This document shows, piece by piece, positions 1,838 to 10,458 of a stretch of DNA of 11,441 bases. The notes beneath the pieces are model-generated. The model worked only from the letters and a program-made list of their open reading frames with translations, made no database searches and was not told the origin of the DNA. The translations under genes were made by a program, and so were the position numbers. Origin of the DNA: a virus. The DNA lies in UHGV virus genome UHGV-0368337. The stretch is one strand, 5' to 3'. The stretch's first letter is position 1. The number at the start of each line of letters is the position of its first letter.

Positions 1838-2143
1838 TCAATCGTAATAAGCCGGAATTGATTTTCCGCGTTGTTTCTGGCGGCCTGAGCAAGTCACACC
1901 CATTTCACTGCGTGGTTTGCGGTAGTAAATACGGTTCTGTTTACTCTCGACTTCTTCTGCCTTCTTGCAGCGAAGGCTTCCGAGTGATACTGCTTTGTCT
2001 GCTCCGACGCAACCAGAGATCTTTAGCGCAATCTTCCGTGTCAGTCTTTCACTACTGCGCCGCTCTGCAATAAGTTCTTCCCTGCGAGCTTTATAGCGGC
2101 TTTTTGCCGTACCTTTGGATTCTTTCCAGATTATGGTTACCAT
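1838..2143 (-). CDS. N: transcription antitermination protein N (phage-21-type arginine-rich motif)
   Basis: ORF track 1838..2242; preferred start ATG at 2143 with AAAGGAGA upstream. N-terminus MVTIIWKESKGTAKSRYKARREELIAERR matches the phage 21 N arginine-rich boxB-binding motif as I recall it. boxA/boxB nut sites lie in its leader and again after cro. Confidence 0.75.
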   Translation of the reverse strand: MVTIIWKESKGTAKSRYKARREELIAERRSSERLTRKIALKISGCVGADKAVSLGSLRCKKAEEVESKQNRIYYRKPRSEMGVTCSGRQKQRGKSIPAYYD

Positions 2144-2253
2144 GATGGTCTCCTTTAAGTGGCTTTGGTGTATGACGCGTCGAGGTGTTTTTCTTCTCGA
2201 TCGCGGCCTTGCAACTGAAATTCGCGTCATCCCCAAAACCACTTAGATTTTGG

Positions 2254-2294
2254 TCTCAACGGTTAGGTTGAGAGTCCATCAATGTTAAAGAGCC
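2254..2294 (-). promoter_or_regulatory. nutL: boxA (GCTCTTTAACATT) plus boxB hairpin
   Basis: On the minus strand: GGCTCTTTAACATT, 7 nt, then hairpin TCTCAAC-CTAACC-GTTGAGA. The same boxA 13-mer and a CTAACA-loop hairpin recur at 3902..3942 after cro. Confidence 0.6.
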
Positions 2295-2339
2295 GGCCAA
2301 TCTGTTCCGTTTGGCTTCCAGCGTCCTGCTGTTGAATTG

Positions 2340-2381
2340 AAGATAACCTAAGTTATCTGGTTGTGCAATAACTATATTTAT
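2340..2381 (-). promoter_or_regulatory. PL candidate promoter overlapping OL operators
   Basis: Minus strand TTGCAC (2368..2363), 17 nt, TATCTT (2345..2340). Operator-like palindromes ATAACctaaGTTAT (2343..2356) and ATAACtataTTTAT (2368..2381), centres 25 bp apart, match the OR half-sites. Confidence 0.5.
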
Positions 2382-2476
2382 CATTTTATGAAAAACGTTA
2401 TAAATGACTGATAACAAAAATATTTTATTTTTTGTGGTATCCGCGTGATATTTTCAAGGGGGAAAGGCTGATTGTT

Positions 2477-2698
2477 ATGGGTGATTGCATGTTAATCGAA
2501 GGGGAATTTGGTGTGTTGCACCAGCGGGTAGTCGAAATTCTAGGGGTGTCGTTGCTTGAGGTTATTGCTACTGGGGAAGCTATTTCAGCAGATGCTATTG
2601 CGGGAATGATCCGAGTGCTTCACCATGATGAATTGGATGATCTCGCTGTGAAGTTAGCTATAGATGTGTTACTTCAGGATATGCGACTGTGTAATTAA
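2477..2698 (+). CDS. hypothetical protein (73 aa)
   Basis: ORF track 2432..2698; preferred start ATG at 2477 (MGDCMLIEGEF...) preceded by a purine-rich GGGGGAAAGG. Sits between PL and the 3-prime end of cI on the opposite strand. No recognisable motif. Confidence 0.4.
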   Translation: MGDCMLIEGEFGVLHQRVVEILGVSLLEVIATGEAISADAIAGMIRVLHHDELDDLAVKLAIDVLLQDMRLCN

Positions 2699-2726
2699 GT
2701 AAATAAAACCCGGCACTGGAGCCGGG
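2699..2726 (-). terminator. candidate rho-independent terminator downstream of cI
   Basis: Hairpin CCCGGC-ACTGGA-GCCGGG at 2709..2726. On the minus strand it is followed by a U-rich tract (rc of 2699..2708 = TTTTATTTAC). Confidence 0.4.
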
Positions 2727-2851
2727 GGGATTTAGAAATGGCATTTTATGAATTGGCTACTTGGCGAATGGTTTACCATCGGTGGTATTGAGCACAATAA
2801 AAGGCCGTTCTTCGTGAGTGTTCTTATAGCAAAAGTTCAGTTGGAGTCTGA

Positions 2852-3559
2852 TTACCAGCTATGTGATGACCAGAACACTCGCCCTATGATTCTTACGTTT
2901 TTGTAGAATTCTTCTCTGTTCATTACTTCATCAGGATACTCTTCGCGGTTTATCGATCTGATAATTACCGATGTTGGCGTGGCTATGAGCGTTTTTACCC
3001 TTAACAAATCAGCTTGGCAAATTGCATATGTTTTACCATCCCTGATGCTCGTATCTCGCGTGTTTACCCCCACCACATCACCATCATGGAGTGTTGGCTC
3101 CATGCTTTGCCCAACAACCCTGACCAACTTTGCCGCTTTTTCTGGAACTCCCATTTTTTTCAGGTAATAGCGCCTAAAAACTAGAGAGAATTCTGCGGAC
3201 TCCTCCAATGCACAACTTCCTCCGCCAGCTGAAAGTGAAATATTTAGAAGGGGGAGCGCAACAAATTCTTCATTATCATTTTGATGATCATCCCAGGCGA
3301 TAGCTTTTAAAGATGATTCCCGAGCATTAGATGGCTCTTCTGCGCTCTGTGGTCTCATTGACCCTATACCAGAGCTTAGCCATTCAGGGCGAACTCTTAA
3401 CGCGTTGGCTAATTCGACCATTTTACGTGATCCGGTTGTTTTACCAGATGACATCTTTTGTATGGCTGGTTGTGATACCCCCACCATGTCTGCAAGTTGT
3501 GCTTGTGACAACCCGGCTGAACTCATGGCGGCATTTAGTCTTTCTGCGAATGTTTTCAT
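2852..3559 (-). CDS. cI: CI-type prophage repressor (N-terminal HTH, C-terminal S24/LexA-like autopeptidase)
   Basis: 235 aa. N-terminal HTH (LSQAQLADMVGVSQPAIQKM), Ala-Gly cleavage region (LSAGGG), catalytic serine motif GQSMEP and downstream lysine (RVK). Divergent from the cro-like gene with operators between them. Confidence 0.9.
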   Translation of the reverse strand: MKTFAERLNAAMSSAGLSQAQLADMVGVSQPAIQKMSSGKTTGSRKMVELANALRVRPEWLSSGIGSMRPQSAEEPSNARESSLKAIAWDDHQNDNEEFVALPLLNISLSAGGGSCALEESAEFSLVFRRYYLKKMGVPEKAAKLVRVVGQSMEPTLHDGDVVGVNTRDTSIRDGKTYAICQADLLRVKTLIATPTSVIIRSINREEYPDEVMNREEFYKNVRIIGRVFWSSHSW

Positions 3560-4470: not shown

Positions 4471-5553
4471 ATGCGTAATTACGCAACAATTTCACCTCAG
4501 TTCTGGTTAGGCGATACAGGGCGAAAACTAAGGAAGTCTGGTCCGGAAAGTATGGTAGTGGCGTTGTATATGATGACCTCGCCTCATTCCAATATGCTGG
4601 GCCTTTATTACCTGCCTGTTTTGTACATTGCTCACGAAACCGGACTTGATCCTGAAGGGGCTTCTAAGGGGCTTCAAATGGCTTGCGAGGCTGGTTTTTG
4701 CAGCTATGACCATGATTCTGAGGTTGTATGGGTGCATGAAATGGCAGCATGGCAGGTTGGTGAATCGCTGAAACCTGGCGATAACCGTTGTGCTGGGGTA
4801 AGAAATGAATATTCCGCGTTGCTGGAAAATCCTTTTTTATCATCCTTTTATGATAGATATAAGGATGATTTCCACCTGGATGTCAGACGTGAATCATGTC
4901 GGAAAATTGAAGCCCCTTCAGAGCCCCTTTCAAGCCAAGAACAGGAACAGGAACAAGAACAGGAAAGGGATAAAACCCTTCTGGTCCATGGCGAAAAAAT
5001 CGCCACGGACCCACAGGGGGATTTTTGTCCTGTTCTGACTGAACGTCCAGGACCAGCGGGCACGACACCGGAAGCAGATTCCGGGCGTTGTGTGCAGCAG
5101 GTGCTGATCGTCGAACCGGAGCAACAACGCCAACCGCAGCAGCCTGAAGCCGATTCCGCGATGAGCGGGAAGCCGATTGGGTTAACCCGGGCGATGCCGG
5201 GACCGTCTGCGGGACGAGTTGATTATCCTGACGTGTTCGAACGGGTCTGGCGTGAATATCCGCATCGGGCAGGGTCAAACCCGAAGAAATCCGCGTTCAA
5301 TGCCTGGAGGGCCAGATTACGCGAAGGGGTGTCACCGGATGTCGTGCTGGATGGCGTGAGGCGTTACGCAAGATACCTGGAGGCTACCGGGAAAGCGGGA
5401 ACTGAATTTGTTCAGCAGGCATCGACGTTTTTTGGCCCGAACAGGAATTTCGAAAATCCGTGGTCGCTGCCGAAGGCTGGCGCAGTCAGCCTGCGTTGCG
5501 TGAATCACATTTCTGAACCGGACACCGAAATTCCGCCGGGTTTCAGGGGGTAA
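4471..5553 (+). CDS. phage replication initiation protein (O-like/YdaU-like), with QEQEQEQE linker
   Basis: 360 aa; GAGGGG RBS. Immediately upstream of, and stop-start coupled to, the DnaC-like gene. Acidic/Gln-rich interdomain linker; C-terminal F-E-R-V-W-R-E-Y-P...A-F-N-A-W segment. Function inferred mainly from position. Confidence 0.7.
   Translation: MRNYATISPQFWLGDTGRKLRKSGPESMVVALYMMTSPHSNMLGLYYLPVLYIAHETGLDPEGASKGLQMACEAGFCSYDHDSEVVWVHEMAAWQVGESLKPGDNRCAGVRNEYSALLENPFLSSFYDRYKDDFHLDVRRESCRKIEAPSEPLSSQEQEQEQEQERDKTLLVHGEKIATDPQGDFCPVLTERPGPAGTTPEADSGRCVQQVLIVEPEQQRQPQQPEADSAMSGKPIGLTRAMPGPSAGRVDYPDVFERVWREYPHRAGSNPKKSAFNAWRARLREGVSPDVVLDGVRRYARYLEATGKAGTEFVQQASTFFGPNRNFENPWSLPKAGAVSLRCVNHISEPDTEIPPGFRG
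4937..5036. other. candidate replication origin inside the O-like gene
   Basis: Four tandem hexamers GAACAG/GAACAA (4939..4962), A-tract hairpin GGCGAAAAAATCGCC (4990..5004), and TCCTGTTCT (5028..5036), which is the reverse complement of AGAACAGGA in the repeats. Location parallels lambda ori inside O. Confidence 0.3.
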
Positions 5554-7563: not shown

Positions 7564-8148
7564 ATGACCACTTTTACAAAAGAGCAGTTAATCAGTCATG
7601 TTAGTGAAAATGTAAAGGCGATGAAATTTGCAGTAAAACAGACAGCATTCAAAAATTCTCTCGAGGCAATTGAGTTGGATTTAGCACTGGCCCTTGTTGC
7701 TCAGGCTTCGCTGGAAGCAGAGCCCGTGCTTTATATGAATCGATTTACCGGAAAGACATTCTCACTGGAAGAGCAACCCGGTGCTGATAAGGAACCGGAA
7801 ATATACGTGCCGCTATATGCTGCCCCGCCAGACAGCGCCGCCATGCTTCAGGCTGGAAACTTTCGGGAAAAGAAGGGTTCGTCAACCAATAATTTTCGGG
7901 AAATCTCGGAAACGTCAACCAACCATCCGGTAACTCTGGATGGTTGGATAAGCTGTAGTGAGCGAATGCCGGATGACGGTCAGCACGTAATTATTTTATG
8001 TGATGGCGCATTCGTTCTTTATGCGCAATATCGAGACGGTGAGTTTTTTGATGTAGTCCGTGATGGTGATGAATTTTTCGAAACACAGAGCCGCAATGTA
8101 ACCGACTGGATGCCGCTACCAGAACCGCCGCAGGAGGTGCGCCAATGA
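7564..8148 (+). CDS. Ead/Ea22-like protein with DUF551-type C-terminus
   Basis: ORF track 7504..8148; preferred start ATG at 7564 (AGGAG 6 nt upstream); GTG at 7504 is an alternative. C-terminus ...WISCSERMPDDGQ...VTDWMPLPEPP matches the DUF551 signature as I remember it. Internal 32-bp tandem repeat at 7861..7925. Confidence 0.7.
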   Translation: MTTFTKEQLISHVSENVKAMKFAVKQTAFKNSLEAIELDLALALVAQASLEAEPVLYMNRFTGKTFSLEEQPGADKEPEIYVPLYAAPPDSAAMLQAGNFREKKGSSTNNFREISETSTNHPVTLDGWISCSERMPDDGQHVIILCDGAFVLYAQYRDGEFFDVVRDGDEFFETQSRNVTDWMPLPEPPQEVRQ

Positions 8149-8228
8149 ACTGGCCTGAAGCATTTGCAATTACAGGCGTTGCTATGGCTATCACTTTTTT
8201 AGTATATGTTATTTGTCGGTGGGGGTAA
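8145..8228 (+). CDS. small hydrophobic peptide (27 aa), putative single-pass membrane peptide
   Basis: ATG at 8145 overlaps the upstream stop (ATGA) with AGGAGG 6 nt upstream. MNWPEAFAITGVAMAITFLVYVICRWG. Below the ORF-track size cutoff. Confidence 0.4.
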   Translation: MNWPEAFAITGVAMAITFLVYVICRWG

Positions 8229-8263
8229 AAACGTTCGCCGGGATTAACACCAAAGGAGGGAAT

Positions 8264-8368
8264 ATGTCGGATGATATATCACTGGCAATGGAAGGTGCGC
8301 TGGCTGTTATTGCTGTTGTGGGCGTTTACTGCCTGGTTGTGTTTTTGATGGATCGACTAGGGAACTGA
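8264..8368 (+). CDS. small hydrophobic peptide (34 aa), putative single-pass membrane peptide
   Basis: ATG at 8264 preceded by AAAGGAGGG. MSDDISLAMEGALAVIAVVGVYCLVVFLMDRLGN. Below the ORF-track size cutoff. Confidence 0.4.
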   Translation: MSDDISLAMEGALAVIAVVGVYCLVVFLMDRLGN

Positions 8369-8377
8369 ATTCATTAC

Positions 8378-8399
8378 GATATGGGAATTCCCATATCGG
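8378..8399. repeat. perfect 22-bp palindrome CGATATGGGAATTCCCATATCG
   Basis: Sequence equals its own reverse complement. Lies between the second small peptide ORF and the candidate hok promoter; not followed by a U-tract on either strand. Confidence 0.85.
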
Positions 8400-8410
8400 G
8401 TAAAAACGGT

Positions 8411-8438
8411 TTGCGGTAAAGCGAGAGTTAAGTAGAAT
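8411..8438 (+). promoter_or_regulatory. candidate sigma-70 promoter of the hok-type transcript
   Basis: TTGCGG (8411..8416), 16 nt, TAGAAT (8433..8438). Would give a leader of about 170 nt containing the hairpin CTGTCTGCC...GGCAGACAG (8459..8493), as expected for hok-family mRNAs. Confidence 0.4.
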
Positions 8439-8499
8439 TGCTGCGGGTGCTTGAGGCTGTCTGCCTCGGGCATGCCACCGTAAGGCAGACAGAGAAAAG

Positions 8500-8565
8500 C
8501 CCCAGTTAACATTACGCGTCCTGCAAGACGCCTAACATTAATCTGAGGCCAATTTCATGCTAGAC
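8500..8565 (-). ncRNA. candidate Sok-like antisense RNA (hypothetical)
   Basis: Minus-strand promoter-like TTGCCT (rc of 8595..8600), 17 nt, TAACCT (rc of 8572..8577). The transcript would be antisense to the SD and start of the upstream in-frame ORF at 8557 and contain hairpin 8515..8530. No clean U-tract terminator. Confidence 0.25.
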
Positions 8566-8613
8566 ACATGTAGGTTAGCCTCTTACGCGCCGAAAGGCAA
8601 GGAGAAGCAGGCT

Positions 8614-8769
8614 ATGAAGCAGCAAAAGGCGATGTTAGTCGCCCTGATCGTCATCTGTATTACCGTCATTGTGACGGCACTGGTAACGAGGAAAGACCTC
8701 TGCGAGGTACGAATCCGAACCGGCCAGACGGAGGTCACTGTCTTCACAGCTTACGAACCTGAGGAGTAA
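8614..8769 (+). CDS. hok: Hok/Gef-family type I toxin (51 aa membrane peptide)
   Basis: MKQQKAMLVALIVICITVIVTALVTRKDLCEVRIRTGQTEVTVFTAYEPEE shows the Hok/Gef signature (TM helix, TRK-LCE-R-G-EVA-F-AYE). AAGGCAAGGAGAAG RBS. ORF track 8557..8769 includes an in-frame upstream start with its own GAGG. Confidence 0.85.
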   Translation: MKQQKAMLVALIVICITVIVTALVTRKDLCEVRIRTGQTEVTVFTAYEPEE

Positions 8770-8837
8770 GAGACCAGGCGAGGGAGAAATCCCTCGCCAC
8801 CTCTGATGTGTCAGGCATCCTCAACGCACCCGCACTT

Positions 8838-8859
8838 AACCCGCTTCGGCGGGTTTTTT
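8838..8859 (+). terminator. rho-independent terminator of the hok transcript
   Basis: AACCCGC-TTCG-GCGGGTT followed by TTTT, preceded by the strong 3-prime hairpin GGCGAGGGA-GAAA-TCCCTCGCC (8777..8798). Confidence 0.75.
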
Positions 8860-8978
8860 CACGTACTGTGGTTGTGAATACGATCGGTATTAGGCTATGC
8901 TAACAACATTAGCCTGACTAATTTTGTATTGACTTGATTTTTGTTAAAGAACAGGACGGAGAAGTAAGGGTACACCCA

Positions 8979-9245
8979 ATGAGCTACGCACTAAAAAAAC
9001 ACCCGCGATTGACTATTCCCCCTCGCGATAAAAGCGTTGTGGCAGCTCCGCGCCCGGCTATCGATGAAAATTGCACTCATCGTGAGCAGGTGAAAAATGC
9101 TTTCGATTTCGGTTTTCTCGTTACGAGAAGGCAATGGAAGAACTTTCAAAAGTGTAATGATGGGTATTGTGCTCTATGGCTGAGATTGTTGAAGGAGTGC
9201 ACTACCTTTCGTTTGATGATCTTACCGAAATTAATCGCCTTTTAA
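8979..9245 (+). CDS. hypothetical protein (88 aa) upstream of and overlapping the doc-like gene; possible non-canonical antitoxin or spurious ORF
   Basis: ORF track 8934..9245; candidate start ATG at 8979 with a purine-rich GGAGAAGTAAGGG upstream. Overlaps the Doc-like ORF by 70 nt in another frame. No Phd/YefM-like or other recognisable signature. Confidence 0.3.
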   Translation: MSYALKKHPRLTIPPRDKSVVAAPRPAIDENCTHREQVKNAFDFGFLVTRRQWKNFQKCNDGYCALWLRLLKECTTFRLMILPKLIAF

Positions 9246-9661
9246 TTGAGCTTCAAACACCAGATGAACCTGTTAGTGTGCTGAGTGTTGATAATTTAAG
9301 TTCTTCTCAGTCTCGTCCCAGCATGGTTCGATGGTATGAACAGACTAATGACATGTTTGTACTGGCATCAGTATTGATTGAAAGTCTGATTCAGAATCAT
9401 CCATTTGCTAATGCAAACAAACGAACAGCTATGATGGCTGGTTATGTCTTCTTGTTGTTGAATGGCTATGAGTTAACAGCACCAGGCGATGAAATCGTGG
9501 AAATGGCAGAGGGACTGGCCTGCAAAACCTATACTCGAGAAGATCTCGAGAACTGGTTGTGTTATTGGTCTCGTGCGTATGACGGCCGGGAATTATGTAA
9601 AACAGGCGCAACTGTTGTTTTGTATGAAACTATCAAGCTTAAAATAGAACAGCAAAACTAA
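9176..9661 (+). CDS. doc: Doc-family (Fic-fold) toxin
   Basis: ORF track 9167..9661 (TTG); first ATG at 9176. Contains HPFANANKRTAMMAGYVFLLLNGY, matching the Doc signature HxFx(D/N)(A/G)NKR rather than the canonical Fic motif. Size is that of stand-alone Doc proteins. Confidence 0.8.
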   Translation: MAEIVEGVHYLSFDDLTEINRLLIELQTPDEPVSVLSVDNLSSSQSRPSMVRWYEQTNDMFVLASVLIESLIQNHPFANANKRTAMMAGYVFLLLNGYELTAPGDEIVEMAEGLACKTYTREDLENWLCYWSRAYDGRELCKTGATVVLYETIKLKIEQQN

Positions 9662-10083: not shown

Positions 10084-10391
10084 TTAGATTGAGTACGTGA
10101 GGAGCCCCTTCCGAAATGCACTTTCCTCAGTAGCGGTTATATTTTCACGTTCATTTTTTGCGTATGCATATACGAAAAAGGCCCTTGTGCCGACGCGATA
10201 GAAAATGATTGTGCGATAACCGCCAGATTTGCCGCCACCGACTCGTGGCAGACGTTGCTTGATAACGCCGTTACCCAGGTTTGCTGAGATAAGCCCGTTA
10301 TCAGCCTGTTTAACAATTTCGCGCAGTGATTGGTCGGATATTTTGTTTTGCGTGCAAGTCGCTCAAACCAGGCGTTTTTAAAAATGCGCAT
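10084..10391 (-). pseudogene. RelE/HigB-like type II toxin gene interrupted by a -1 frameshift
   Basis: N-terminus MRIFKNAWFERLARKTK from the ATG at 10391. The rest, including the hallmark GGGKSGGYRTIIFYR, is in the -1 frame (...ISDQSLREIVKQADNGLISANLGNGVIKQRLPRVGGGKSGGYRTIIFYRVG...TYSI, stop 10086..10084). Adding one base to the homopolymer at 10341..10344 restores a 102-aa ORF. Confidence 0.6.
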
Positions 10392-10458
10392 TTTTTGTTC
10401 CGTTATTAATGTATAACACATAGTGTTACATTGCGTAGGGATCTGCAATGCCATCAGT

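What the first reader, a model, noticed from the sequence alone, without database searches (positions are those of the whole stretch)
8378..8399. Perfect 22-bp palindrome immediately upstream of the hok-type promoter
CGATATGGGAATTCCCATATCG is a perfect inverted repeat, unlikely by chance in 11 kb, placed about 12 bp upstream of the candidate -35 of the hok promoter. It has no adjacent U-tract on either strand, so it is more likely a dimeric regulator binding site or an RNA processing hairpin than a terminator.
Basis: seen in the sequence. Interest (0 to 1): 0.4.

Follow-up and report, generated by a model that had tools for sequence, protein, structure and literature searches.

The report
Orphan KilA-N gene palindrome beside hok
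The 22-bp palindrome is real, but it is not part of the hok toxin switch: it is a stray copy of a DNA palindrome that normally sits inside KilA-N/BstA-type phage-defence genes across many bacterial phyla, and it may let this prophage evade such defences.

Summary
The perfect palindrome CGATATGGGAATTCCCATATCG exists at 8377-8398, one base left of the stated coordinates. It ends 11 bp before the hok -35 and has no U-tract.

It is not a hok/sok component. Only about 26 of 78 phage hok loci have it. 933W-type, plasmid and chromosomal hok homology starts just after it, and its distance to the -10 varies (34 vs 52-53 bp).

The same 22-mer lies inside KilA-N-domain genes of many phyla, encoding DMGIPIS. 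In 69 diverged genes the arms stay complementary through compensatory changes that alter amino acids and synonymous sites (71 double-change cells vs 24 expected; 0/500 shuffles). In six Bacteroidota genes the identical 22-mer is read in another frame. So it is a nucleic-acid element, not a peptide motif.

The enterobacterial host genes belong to the BstA abortive-infection family, which is known to carry a DNA self-immunity element (aba).

The window copy keeps about 15-24 nt of antisense KilA-N flank, so it is an orphan relic at a mosaic joint. Orphans, and arrays of different variants, occur in other phages.

Best reading (inferred): a dyad site for KilA-N proteins, kept as an aba-like decoy. 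The main rival is a neutral recombination relic.

The parts
8377..8398 (.). Perfect 22-bp palindrome CGATATGGGAATTCCCATATCG. It is an orphan copy of the KilA-N-gene palindrome, with core GGAATTCC and 9-bp complementary arms.
   Evidence: establish presence and significance. Searches show the same element inside KilA-N genes with covariation and in two reading frames.
8362..8376 (-). Left flank GAACTGAATTCATTA, a degraded antisense remnant of KilA-N coding sequence (the ..ELIQSF.. segment that follows DMGIPIS). It is shared with type B hok loci and is much clearer in type C and L227 loci.
   Evidence: blastn and manual alignment. Type C reaches 81-85% identity over 54 nt including the palindrome. 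In this window the similarity is weak, and the right flank is ordinary hok upstream sequence.
8223..8233 (+). Direct repeat 1, GGGTAAAAACG, at the stop codon of small ORF1.
   Evidence: Comparison with 933W-type loci, where the ORF1 stop is fused directly to AAAACGGTTTGCGG.
8398..8408 (+). Direct repeat 2, GGGTAAAAACG, overlapping the last base of the palindrome. The two repeats bracket ORF2 plus the palindrome, the segment missing from 933W-type loci.
8145..8228 (+). ORF1, a 27-aa hydrophobic peptide (MNWPEAFAITGVAMAITFLVYVICRWG).
   Evidence: Homologous small ORFs sit upstream of hok in 933W and many other loci. There is no significant Pfam family.
8264..8368 (+). ORF2, a 34-aa hydrophobic peptide, annotated as hypothetical in RefSeq. 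Its stop codon lies 8 nt before the palindrome.
   Evidence: No Pfam family.
8410..8438 (+). hok promoter by consensus and homology: -35 TTTGCG (8410-8415), a 17-bp spacer, and -10 TAGAAT (8433-8438).
   Evidence: The block is conserved in all hok locus types. It was not called by the strict consensus scan.
8445..8619 (+). hok mRNA leader and Sok target region. Sok RNA itself lies on the - strand at about 8495-8565, mapped from the 933W annotation.
   Evidence: Rfam RF01794, 116.9 bits, E=1.4e-27. sokW annotation in 933W.
8557..8769 (+). mok (8557-8769) and the overlapping hok toxin gene (8614-8769, 51 aa).
   Evidence: RefSeq annotates it as hokD / Hok family toxin.
8838..8860 (+). Intrinsic terminator of the hok transcript (AACCCGCTTCGGCGGGTTTTTT).
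   Evidence: Sequence. A weak isrK-like Rfam match at 8778-8859 covers it.

Best explanation
The palindrome is an orphan copy of a DNA element whose normal home is the coding sequence of KilA-N DNA-binding domains. These include the KilA-N/BstA-family abortive-infection genes that related E. coli prophages carry just downstream of cI.

Shown:
- The same 22-mer, and symmetric variants of it, sit at one fixed position in KilA-N genes from many phyla.
- The two arms co-vary so that complementarity is kept, even when this changes the protein.
- One subfamily reads the identical 22-mer in a different frame.
- The window copy retains a short antisense KilA-N flank.
- It lies at a mosaic joint between a small-ORF cassette and the hok/sok module.
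- It is dispensable for hok loci.

Inferred:
- The element is a dyad-symmetric recognition site for a KilA-N-domain dimer, with an invariant GGAATTCC core and lineage-specific arms.
- BstA-family proteins are silenced by a cognate DNA element (aba) in their own locus. By analogy, a phage that carries the palindrome without the gene would titrate or silence the matching KilA-N/BstA-type protein made by a resident prophage, and so escape abortive infection.
- The palindrome does not regulate hok. Its closeness to the hok promoter is an accident of recombination history.
For: **Not part of hok/sok.**
- Only 26 of 78 independently retrieved phage hok loci have it.
- In 933W the ORF1 stop abuts AAAACGGTTTGCGG directly.
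- Plasmid and chromosomal hok homology starts at 8395-8415.
- The distance to the -10 is 34 bp in some lineages and 52-53 bp in others.

**Home inside KilA-N genes.**
- 63 exact genome hits against about 0.03 expected.
- 31 are in KilA-N ORFs as DMGIPIS and 6 in Bacteroidota KilA-N ORFs as RYGNSHI, a different frame at the homologous position.
- Pfam KilA-N matches at E=4.8e-27.

**Nucleotide-level constraint.**
- In a degenerate DMGIPIS scan, every KilA-N hit uses palindromic codons, including the ATA codon for Ile. Chance hits in other proteins use assorted codons.
- Among 69 representatives sharing less than 85% nt identity, 35 are perfect, 12 have one mismatch, and at least 17 are distinct perfect variants.
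- There are 71 double-sided-change cells against 24.2+/-3.7 in shuffles (0/500). The covariation score is 0.338 against 0.145, and 0.094 or less for slid controls.
- Some partners are synonymous, for example ATC paired with CCG.
- Third positions at 34 other conserved four-fold-degenerate codons are close to evenly distributed.

**Relic status.**
- blastn extends homology beyond the palindrome into KilA-N sequence, antisense to hok. This is 81-85% over 54 nt in type C loci.

**Orphans look maintained.**
- Types A and B have a 22/22 identical palindrome while their flanks are 76-82% identical.
- The non-coding orphan in L227 carries a compensated A-T to G-C pair.
- Orphans of a second variant occur in non-KilA contexts (about 8 of 16 loci; L509 was later reclassified as lying in a diverged KilA-N gene).
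- Arrays of different perfect variants occur in L511, L171, L160 and L135, with no KilA-N gene in the held flanks.

**BstA link.**
- The enterobacterial host protein matches PHROG 6287, 'BstA abortive infection system', at 2e-83 over its full length, and PADLOC BstA at 3.5e-21.
- In E. coli ML35, a prophage 99% identical to the window here, the gene sits right after cI.
- Owen et al. 2021 (PMC8585504) showed that BstA is silenced by a DNA-based, cognate, transferable element inside its own locus.
- E. coli KilA-N alleles have unrelated upstream regions and no BTP1-like terminal repeats, so a co-inherited element would have to be intragenic.
Against: - No binding or immunity experiment exists for this palindrome.
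- The one mapped aba (BTP1) is a 63-bp element at the 5' end of the gene with CCCGCC direct repeats. It is not a palindrome, and BTP1 bstA has no such palindrome.
- The palindrome follows the KilA-N domain whatever the C-terminal domain is (Nostoc, Calothrix). The BstA analogy may therefore not be the right frame.
- About 15 of 69 family representatives lack it.
- ML35-type prophages carry both the gene and the hok-side orphan, which a pure decoy model does not require.
- Arm-to-arm template switching could keep a palindrome perfect without selection. The orphan lineages are few and partly ascertained by exact-match searches.
- A test for co-variation between arm sequence and KilA-N residues was inconclusive.
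Confidence: 0.45

Rival explanations
1. Neutral fossil at a recombination joint. A KilA-N gene was broken at or near its palindrome and joined to the hok cassette. The orphan has no present function. It stays perfect because it is young, is refreshed by recombination with KilA-N genes, or is self-corrected by intrastrand template switching between the arms.
For: - A KilA-N-like flank survives on one side only.
- Homology breakpoints of several phage and plasmid lineages fall at or next to the palindrome.
- 11-bp direct repeats bracket ORF2 plus the palindrome, and 933W-type loci look like the deletion product.
- MaxChi breakpoints within the gene family include a cluster around the palindrome.
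- If the arms evolve in concert, zero changes between types A and B is only mildly unlikely (reasoning).
Against: - The palindrome is intact in about 7 hok-side lineages whose left flanks have been replaced or have diverged.
- There is a compensated pair in a non-coding orphan.
- Arrays of different perfect variants sit side by side in unrelated phages and bacteria.
- The type A orphan arrangement is in at least 660 complete E. coli genomes, against 139 with the gene.
- The strongest MaxChi peaks are elsewhere in the gene.
Confidence: 0.27
2. Operator for a dimeric regulator of the hok promoter. A protein bound at about -58 activates or represses hok transcription.
For: Perfect dyad symmetry, and a position 11 bp upstream of the -35, centred near -58.5 from the inferred start.
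Against: - It is absent from two thirds of near-identical phage hok promoters and from plasmid and chromosomal hok loci.
- The spacing to the promoter differs by 18-19 bp, which is not a whole number of helical turns.
- The same element occurs in many contexts with no hok nearby: inside KilA-N genes, in front of a separate terminator upstream of ninB, and elsewhere.
- The window and 18.8 kb of the prophage hold no second copy.
Confidence: 0.07
3. RNA hairpin. When transcribed by read-through from the early-right operon, it forms a 9-bp stem with an AAUU loop. This could protect the 3' end of the ORF1/ORF2 message, serve as a processing site, or, inside KilA-N mRNAs, control translation or stability.
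For: - Predicted RNA hairpin of -14.5 kcal/mol. As DNA it is -8.6 kcal/mol, z = -3.7.
- It lies 8 nt after the ORF2 stop with no terminator in between.
- Covariation preserves pairing.
- A palindrome gives the same hairpin from either strand, so orientation cannot exclude this.
Against: - There is no U-tract.
- In the ninB-upstream context a separate canonical terminator follows 9 nt later.
- Type B and C hok loci have the palindrome without ORF2.
- Among near-perfect copies only about 1 of 12 single mismatches is G-U, and G-T and A-C counts are similar overall (17 vs 24).
- No Rfam family covers it.
- The related aba element was found to act as DNA (PMC8585504).
Confidence: 0.12
4. End or scar of a small mobile cassette. 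ORF2 plus the palindrome inserted as a unit with an 11-bp target duplication (GGGTAAAAACG), or the palindrome is a crossover site for a site-specific recombinase (10-bp arms around a central AT).
For: - Direct repeats at 8223-8233 and 8398-8408 bracket exactly the segment absent from 933W-type loci.
- The palindrome has the general shape of a serine-recombinase crossover site (own knowledge).
Against: - No transposase or recombinase is associated with it in the window or the source prophage.
- The palindrome occurs without ORF2, and ORF2 homologues occur without the palindrome.
- The repeat is equally explained by recombination at a short homology.
Confidence: 0.04

Closest known systems
aba (anti-BstA) self-immunity DNA element of BstA prophage abortive-infection systems (Owen et al. 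2021, Cell Host Microbe, PMC8585504)
   Same: - It is a short DNA element lying within the coding locus of a prophage protein that has an N-terminal KilA-N(-like) DNA-binding domain and the BstA C-terminal domain.
- It differs between homologues (cognate pairs).
- It acts as DNA and works when moved to another phage or plasmid.
- The enterobacterial genes that carry the palindrome match the BstA family (PHROG 6287 at 2e-83; PADLOC BstA at 3.5e-21) and sit downstream of cI like bstA.
   Different: - The mapped aba of BTP1 is 63 bp, straddles the start codon and depends on terminal CCCGCC direct repeats.
- The element here is a 22-bp perfect palindrome in the middle of the KilA-N domain coding sequence.
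- BTP1 bstA has no such palindrome, and its N-domain is only remotely KilA-N-like.
- No functional test links the palindrome to immunity.
- Owen et al. 2021, the paper that defined aba, does not mention orphan copies outside bstA loci; the word 'orphan' does not occur in it.
hok/sok type I toxin-antitoxin locus (R1 hok/sok; hokW/sokW of phage 933W)
   Same: The neighbouring module is a canonical hok/sok locus: mok and hok ORFs, an Rfam sok/hok-leader match and a terminator.
   Different: The palindrome lies upstream of the promoter, outside every conserved hok/sok element. It is missing from most hok loci, including 933W hokW.
Dyad-symmetric operators that co-evolve with their regulators (for example the C-boxes of restriction-modification controller proteins)
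   Same: Palindromic, with an invariant core and arms that change symmetrically between lineages.
   Different: - It is embedded at a fixed position in the coding sequence of a DNA-binding domain.
- It is kept through amino-acid-changing compensatory substitutions and even across reading frames.
- There is usually one copy per gene and no promoter association.
REP/BIME-type extragenic palindromes and intrinsic terminators
   Same: Short GC-clamped hairpin-forming repeats, sometimes in small arrays in non-coding DNA.
   Different: - The primary location is intragenic.
- There is one copy in this 11-kb window and in 18.8 kb of the prophage.
- The sequence is unrelated to the E. coli REP consensus (own knowledge).
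- There is no U-tract.

Membership tests
KilA-N-gene palindrome family (defined here) | 22-bp dyad with a GGAATTCC core, 9 complementary arm pairs and CG...CG ends | tested here: met
   The window 22-mer is identical to the commonest variant in KilA-N genes (12 of 69 representatives).
KilA-N-gene palindrome family (defined here) | Lies within a KilA-N domain ORF at the helix-to-strand linker | tested here: not met
   No KilA-N ORF is present in the window or in L001 (hmmsearch). Stop codons flank the DMGIPIS reading on both strands. It is therefore an orphan copy, not a resident one.
KilA-N-gene palindrome family (defined here) | Flanking sequence homologous to KilA-N coding DNA, showing descent from a gene copy | tested here: inconclusive
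   It is clear in sister hok loci of type C and L227 (about 79-85% over 54 nt including the palindrome). It is weak for this window's left flank and absent on the right.
aba (anti-BstA) self-immunity element | Located within the locus of a BstA-family gene | tested here: not met
   Resident copies are inside BstA-family genes. The window copy is 5-6 kb from the position where the gene sits in ML35, and this prophage lacks the gene.
aba (anti-BstA) self-immunity element | Sequence and architecture of the mapped aba: 63 bp over the start codon with terminal CCCGCC direct repeats | tested here: not met
   There is no similarity. E. coli KilA-N alleles lack such repeats at their 5' ends.
aba (anti-BstA) self-immunity element | Suppresses the cognate BstA protein as DNA, in cis or in trans | not testable with these tools
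   This needs phage plaque or induction assays like those in PMC8585504.
hok/sok locus regulatory elements | Conserved across hok/sok loci and located within the hok or sok transcripts or promoters | tested here: not met
   It lies upstream of the -35, is absent from 52 of 78 phage hok loci and from plasmid and chromosomal homologues, and is outside the Rfam model.
Intrinsic (Rho-independent) terminator | GC-rich stem-loop followed directly by a U-tract | tested here: not met
   The stem is present, but there is no T run on either strand and the scan does not call it. In another context a separate terminator follows it.
Known structured RNA families (Rfam 15) | Match to a covariance model | tested here: not met
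   No hit covers 8377-8398 as a specific family. The only overlap is a chance-level reverse-strand sok match (18 bits, E=0.23).
BstA abortive-infection protein family (for the genes that normally host the palindrome) | [quoted passage not shown] | tested here: met
   Pfam KilA-N at 4.8e-27; PHROG 6287 BstA at 2e-83 over the full length; PADLOC BstA C-domain at 3.5e-21; 29% identity to the BTP1 BstA C-domain; the gene lies downstream of cI in ML35. Defence activity was not tested.

The most novel reading that the evidence does not exclude
The palindrome family is the cognate DNA ligand of KilA-N domains, written into the domain's own coding sequence. In BstA-type prophage abortive-infection proteins it would be the self-immunity (aba-equivalent) element. 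Orphan copies such as the one beside hok would then be DNA-only anti-defence decoys that phages pick up to escape these proteins. Arrays of different variants would be multi-specificity decoys. This would be a widespread class of protein-free anti-defence element, and would give a direct handle on how BstA-like proteins are switched off.
Probability: 0.3. Interest if true: 0.85.

Novelty: new variant of a known kind. Interest (0 to 1): 0.65.

Why it matters
BstA-type prophage defences are known to be silenced by a DNA element in their own locus. That element has been mapped in only one homologue, and its mode of action is unknown. The palindrome described here is a precise, strongly co-varying candidate for the equivalent element in canonical KilA-N homologues. 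It spans many phyla and is simple to test with EMSA, a plasmid supplied in trans, or phage knock-ins.

If orphan copies work as decoys, the type A arrangement alone would put such a DNA-only countermeasure in at least 660 of 5426 complete E. coli genomes, and intergenic palindromes in phage genomes would deserve a second look as anti-defence elements. Apart from function, a coding-sequence palindrome kept by amino-acid-changing compensatory substitutions and across reading frames is an unusual case of nucleic-acid constraint overriding protein sequence. It also marks recurrent mosaic joints in lambdoid phages.

For hok/sok biology the result is negative and clarifying: the palindrome is not part of the system.

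Tried and rejected
- **Rfam on 7800-9300.** It found only the hok/sok leader and nothing for the palindrome.
- **Consensus promoter/terminator scan.** It calls neither the hok promoter (weak -35) nor the palindrome.
- **Literature search for the sequence string.** No hits. Searches on lambdoid palindromes, KilA-N operators and BstA follow-ups found no description of this element.
- **phi80 'IR4' inverted repeats upstream of ninB.** Unrelated sequence.
- **The + strand reading DMGIPISGKNGLR\* against a Calothrix KilA-N protein (DMGIPISGKNGLIQ).** Rejected as coincidence. GGTAAAAACGG is the ordinary ORF1-stop/hok-upstream sequence, also present in loci without the palindrome.
- **Apparent KilA-N homology of the right flank in types A and B.** Rejected for the same reason.
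- **The ninB-upstream 'palindrome + terminator' context as a collapsed KilA-N gene with its own terminator.** The ML35 gene's terminator is different.
- **The palindrome as the sharpest recombination breakpoint within the gene family.** MaxChi shows only a broad cluster there, with stronger peaks at the domain boundary and further downstream.
- **Second palindromes as local operators.** Only Calothrix L125 has extra copies upstream of the gene. Nearly all loci have a single site.
- **Co-variation between arm sequence and other KilA-N residues.** Inconclusive: small sample and no phylogenetic control.
- **BTP1 bstA.** It has no such palindrome, so the element is not the published aba.
- **Solved structures.** Only the yeast Mbp1 APSES domain is related; no phage KilA-N-DNA complex exists.

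Full report
**1. Observation**

The window is part of an E. coli lambdoid prophage. It is 100% identical to strain AST198 over the 801 bp compared (window 8100-8900). The region covers cII, replication genes, DUF1627/DUF977/DUF551, two tiny ORFs, hok/sok, doc and relE-type modules.

CGATATGGGAATTCCCATATCG occurs once, at 8377-8398, one base left of the stated coordinates. It is a perfect 22-bp palindrome.
- About 0.003 such palindromes are expected in 11.4 kb.
- Only 3 of 1000 Markov simulations give one this long.
- The runner-up in the window is 16 bp.

It ends 11 bp before the -35-like TTTGCG (8410-8415). The -10 TAGAAT is at 8433-8438 and the hok mRNA 5' motif at 8446. The Rfam sok/hok-leader model covers 8445-8619 with E=1.4e-27. 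No U-tract follows on either strand, and the terminator scan does not call it.

**2. It is not part of hok/sok**

I retrieved 80 phage hok loci through the Hok protein, a route blind to the palindrome. Of these, 78 could be anchored on the hok mRNA start.
- 26 carry the palindrome. Most are window-like 'type A', three are PPompW-like 'type B', and one (L227) is a diverged variant.
- The others have an almost identical -35/-10 block and no palindrome.
- In 933W-type loci the stop codon of the small ORF1 (..RWG*) runs straight into AAAACGGTTTGCGG.
- In a third type an ORF2-like gene abuts a different -35.

BLAST homology of 933W-type phages begins at 8401. Homology of plasmid and chromosomal hok loci begins at 8395-8415.

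In the window, an 11-bp direct repeat GGGTAAAAACG (8223-8233 and 8398-8408) brackets exactly ORF2 plus the palindrome. The 933W arrangement therefore looks like the product of recombination between these repeats, or the reverse.

The distance from the palindrome to the -10 is 34 bp in types A, B and L091. It is 52-53 bp in type C and L227.

**3. Where else the sequence occurs**

An exact-match scan of one genome per species gave 63 hits, where about 0.03 are expected. The hits come from Cyanobacteria, Alpha-, Beta- and Gammaproteobacteria, Bacteroidota, Bacillota, Spirochaetota, Chloroflexota and others.
- 31 lie inside KilA-N-domain ORFs, read as ..ELS-DMGIPIS-ELVQ..KGG..QGTWVHP. Pfam KilA-N matches at E=4.8e-27.
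- 6 more lie in Bacteroidota KilA-N genes at the homologous place in the domain, but are read in a different frame..LLEE-RYGNSHIA-..VIKGG..LQGTWM.

Identical DNA encoding different peptides at the same position cannot be a protein motif.

In viral contigs, a degenerate search for any DNA encoding DMGIPIS gave a clear split. Every KilA-N hit uses the palindromic codons GAT ATG GGR ATY CCC ATA TC. Chance hits in other proteins use assorted codons.

**4. Covariation**

I collected 160 family loci from metagenomic and viral contigs by protein homology and reduced them to 69 representatives sharing less than 85% nt identity.
- 35 have nine perfect arm pairs and 12 have one mismatch.
- At least 17 different perfectly symmetric sequences occur.
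- About 15 representatives, a QTGLSEAQLIHS subfamily, lack the element.

| Peptide | Sequence |
|---|---|
| DMGIPIS | CGATATGGGAATTCCCATATCG |
| DTGIPVS | CGATACGGGAATTCCCGTATCG |
| DIGIPIS | CGATATCGGAATTCCGATATCG |
| VMGIPIT | CGTTATGGGGATTCCCATAACG |
| DAGIPAS | CGATGCCGGAATTCCGGCATCG |
| SMGIPID | GTCTATGGGAATTCCCATAGAC |

Compensatory changes alter amino acids on both sides (Met/Ile to Thr/Val). Some pair a replacement with a synonymous change (ATG to ATC with CCC to CCG).

Formal counts:

| Measure | Observed | Shuffled control | Shuffles reaching observed | Slid controls |
|---|---|---|---|---|
| Cells paired | 82.8% | 69.7% | 0/500 | 30.0-48.5% |
| Cells with a change on both sides | 71 | 24.2+/-3.7 | 0/500 | 20-27 |
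| Covariation score | 0.338 | 0.145 | 0/500 | 0.094 or less |

Third positions at 34 other conserved four-fold-degenerate codons are close to evenly distributed. The core GGAATTCC, encoding Gly-Ile-Pro, is nearly invariant.

Single mismatches in near-perfect copies are mostly A-A or T-T. G-T and A-C counts are similar (17 vs 24). This gives no sign of RNA-type wobble tolerance but does not exclude RNA.

**5. The host genes are BstA-family**

The enterobacterial proteins are about 254 aa, with a KilA-N domain plus a conserved C-terminal domain.
- They match PHROG 6287, 'BstA abortive infection system, replication inhibitor', at 2e-83 over the full length.
- They match PADLOC BstA at 3.5e-21 in the C-domain.
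- They are 29% identical to BTP1 BstA in that domain.

In E. coli ML35, whose prophage is 99% identical to the window around hok, the gene sits immediately downstream of a LexA-family cI. That is the canonical bstA position, 5.4 kb from the hok-side palindrome. The AST198 prophage has other genes there.

Owen et al. 2021 (PMC8585504) made four relevant points:
- BstA blocks phage DNA replication.
- The encoding prophage is protected by aba, a DNA-based element inside the bstA locus.
- aba elements are cognate to each homologue.
- aba protects P22 when transplanted, or when supplied on a plasmid.

Only the BTP1 aba was mapped. It is 63 bp over the start codon with terminal CCCGCC repeats. BTP1 bstA has a different N-domain and no palindrome, so the palindrome is not the published aba.

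E. coli KilA-N alleles have unrelated upstream regions and no such repeats. Any co-inherited cognate element in them would have to be intragenic.

The palindrome also occurs in KilA-N proteins with other C-terminal domains, in Nostoc and Calothrix. It goes with the KilA-N DNA-binding domain rather than with the BstA effector domain.

**6. The window copy is an orphan relic**

blastn of KilA-N genes against hok-upstream regions extends beyond the palindrome, antisense to hok. In type C loci it gives 81-85% identity over 54 nt, for example AATTATCACG-PAL-GAGTTAATTCAATCATTTAAAG against AATGTTCACC-PAL-GGGTTAACTCAACCGGTTAAAG. L227 gives about 79%.

Side-by-side alignment shows three things:
- The left flank, about 24 nt, is KilA-N-derived. 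It is progressively degraded in types A and B (GAACTGAATTCATT).
- The right flank of types A and B is ordinary hok upstream sequence.
- Type A equals type C minus about 16-18 nt.

No KilA-N ORF is present in the window or in 18.8 kb around it.

**7. Are orphans maintained?**

- Types A and B, both present in the unbiased hok sample, share 22/22 palindrome positions while their flanks are 76-82% identical.
- Across about eight hok-side lineages the left flank has been replaced or has diverged, while the palindrome keeps at least 8 of 9 pairs.
- L227 has four substitutions, two of which form a compensated A-T to G-C pair in non-coding DNA.
- Other enterobacterial phage contexts exist. One recurrent case has the palindrome followed 9 nt later by a separate canonical terminator upstream of ninB.
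- A scan for a second arm variant found 16 loci. About half lie in KilA-N genes (7 by the first screen, and L509 by a later profile search) and about half are orphans.
- Arrays of different perfect variants sit together in L511 (two, 5 bp apart), L171 (two), L160 (three) and L135 (four in about 180 bp). None has a KilA-N gene in the held flanks.
- The type A arrangement occurs in at least 660 of 5426 complete E. coli genomes. The gene occurs in 139.

**8. Interpretation**

Four things are shown.
- The palindrome is real.
- It is outside the hok/sok system.
- It belongs to a nucleic-acid-level element resident in KilA-N genes.
- This copy is an orphan at a mosaic joint.

The rest is inferred. 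The element is most plausibly a dyad recognition site for KilA-N-domain dimers. By analogy with aba, an orphan copy would act as a decoy against KilA-N/BstA-type proteins of other prophages.

Five points weigh against this:
- There is no biochemical evidence.
- The only mapped aba looks different.
- Some family members lack the palindrome.
- ML35 carries both the gene and the orphan.
- Arm-to-arm template switching could keep palindromes perfect without selection.

The main rival is a functionless recombination fossil. A hok operator, an RNA hairpin and a cassette scar are less likely, for the reasons given under each rival.

**9. Novelty**

Neither the sequence nor a KilA-N coding palindrome was found in the searchable literature. 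The BstA paper mentions no palindrome or inverted repeat.

I rate the element a new variant of a known kind: a DNA element embedded in a KilA-N/BstA-type gene, with orphan copies. The function is untested.

Noticed in passing
window 8223-8233 and 8398-8408: An 11-bp direct repeat GGGTAAAAACG brackets ORF2 plus the palindrome. 933W-type hok loci correspond to the arrangement with this segment absent.
   Followed up: partly
L122, L127, L139, L159, L163, L181 (Bacteroidota genome contigs): The identical 22-mer sits at the homologous position of KilA-N genes but is translated in a different frame (RYGNSHI instead of DMGIPIS).
   Followed up: yes
L135 2528-2704; L160 7879-7973; L511 2749-2797; L171 4455-4496: Non-coding arrays of two to four different perfect or near-perfect palindromes share the GGAATTCC core but have different arms. 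No KilA-N gene lies in the held flanks. The L135 array lies about 3 kb from an AAA_15/AAA_21 ATPase plus DUF3226 gene pair on the same contig.
   Followed up: partly
L125 2933-2954 and 3065-3086 (Calothrix): Two further palindromes of the same type, with different arms, lie in the 350-bp non-coding region upstream of a KilA-N gene that has a C-terminal ribbon-helix-helix-like tail (by eye, not tested). The region lies between that gene and an upstream gene whose C-terminal tail is nearly identical (the rest of that gene was not examined).
   Followed up: partly
L496 6160-6921 (E. coli ML35 prophage; corresponds to about window 1900-2900): A near-identical prophage carries a KilA-N/BstA-family gene directly downstream of a LexA-family cI. 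The window's prophage has a different immunity region and unrelated small genes at that place.
   Followed up: partly
viral contigs L265, L274, L298, L315 and others: There is a recurrent context 'ACCATACAAG-palindrome-ACAGCCAGG-GCCTCTTCGGAGGCCTTTTT'. The palindrome is followed by a separate intrinsic terminator; in L265, the one locus checked, this lies upstream of ninB.
   Followed up: partly
window 10380-10395: A 16-bp perfect palindrome AAAAATGCGCATTTTT lies in the relE/parE-HTH toxin-antitoxin region on the - strand. It could be an operator.
   Followed up: no
window 4472-4485: A 14-bp perfect palindrome TGCGTAATTACGCA begins one base after the first base of the 360-aa replication-initiator-like ORF (4471-5553).
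   Followed up: no
window 8778-8859: A sub-threshold Rfam match to isrK (31 bits, gathering score 50, E=1.6e-4) covers the hok mRNA 3' end and terminator region.
   Followed up: no
window 8145-8228 and 8264-8368: Two very small hydrophobic ORFs (27 and 34 aa) lie immediately upstream of hok, with homologues in many lambdoid prophages. Their function is unknown.
   Followed up: no
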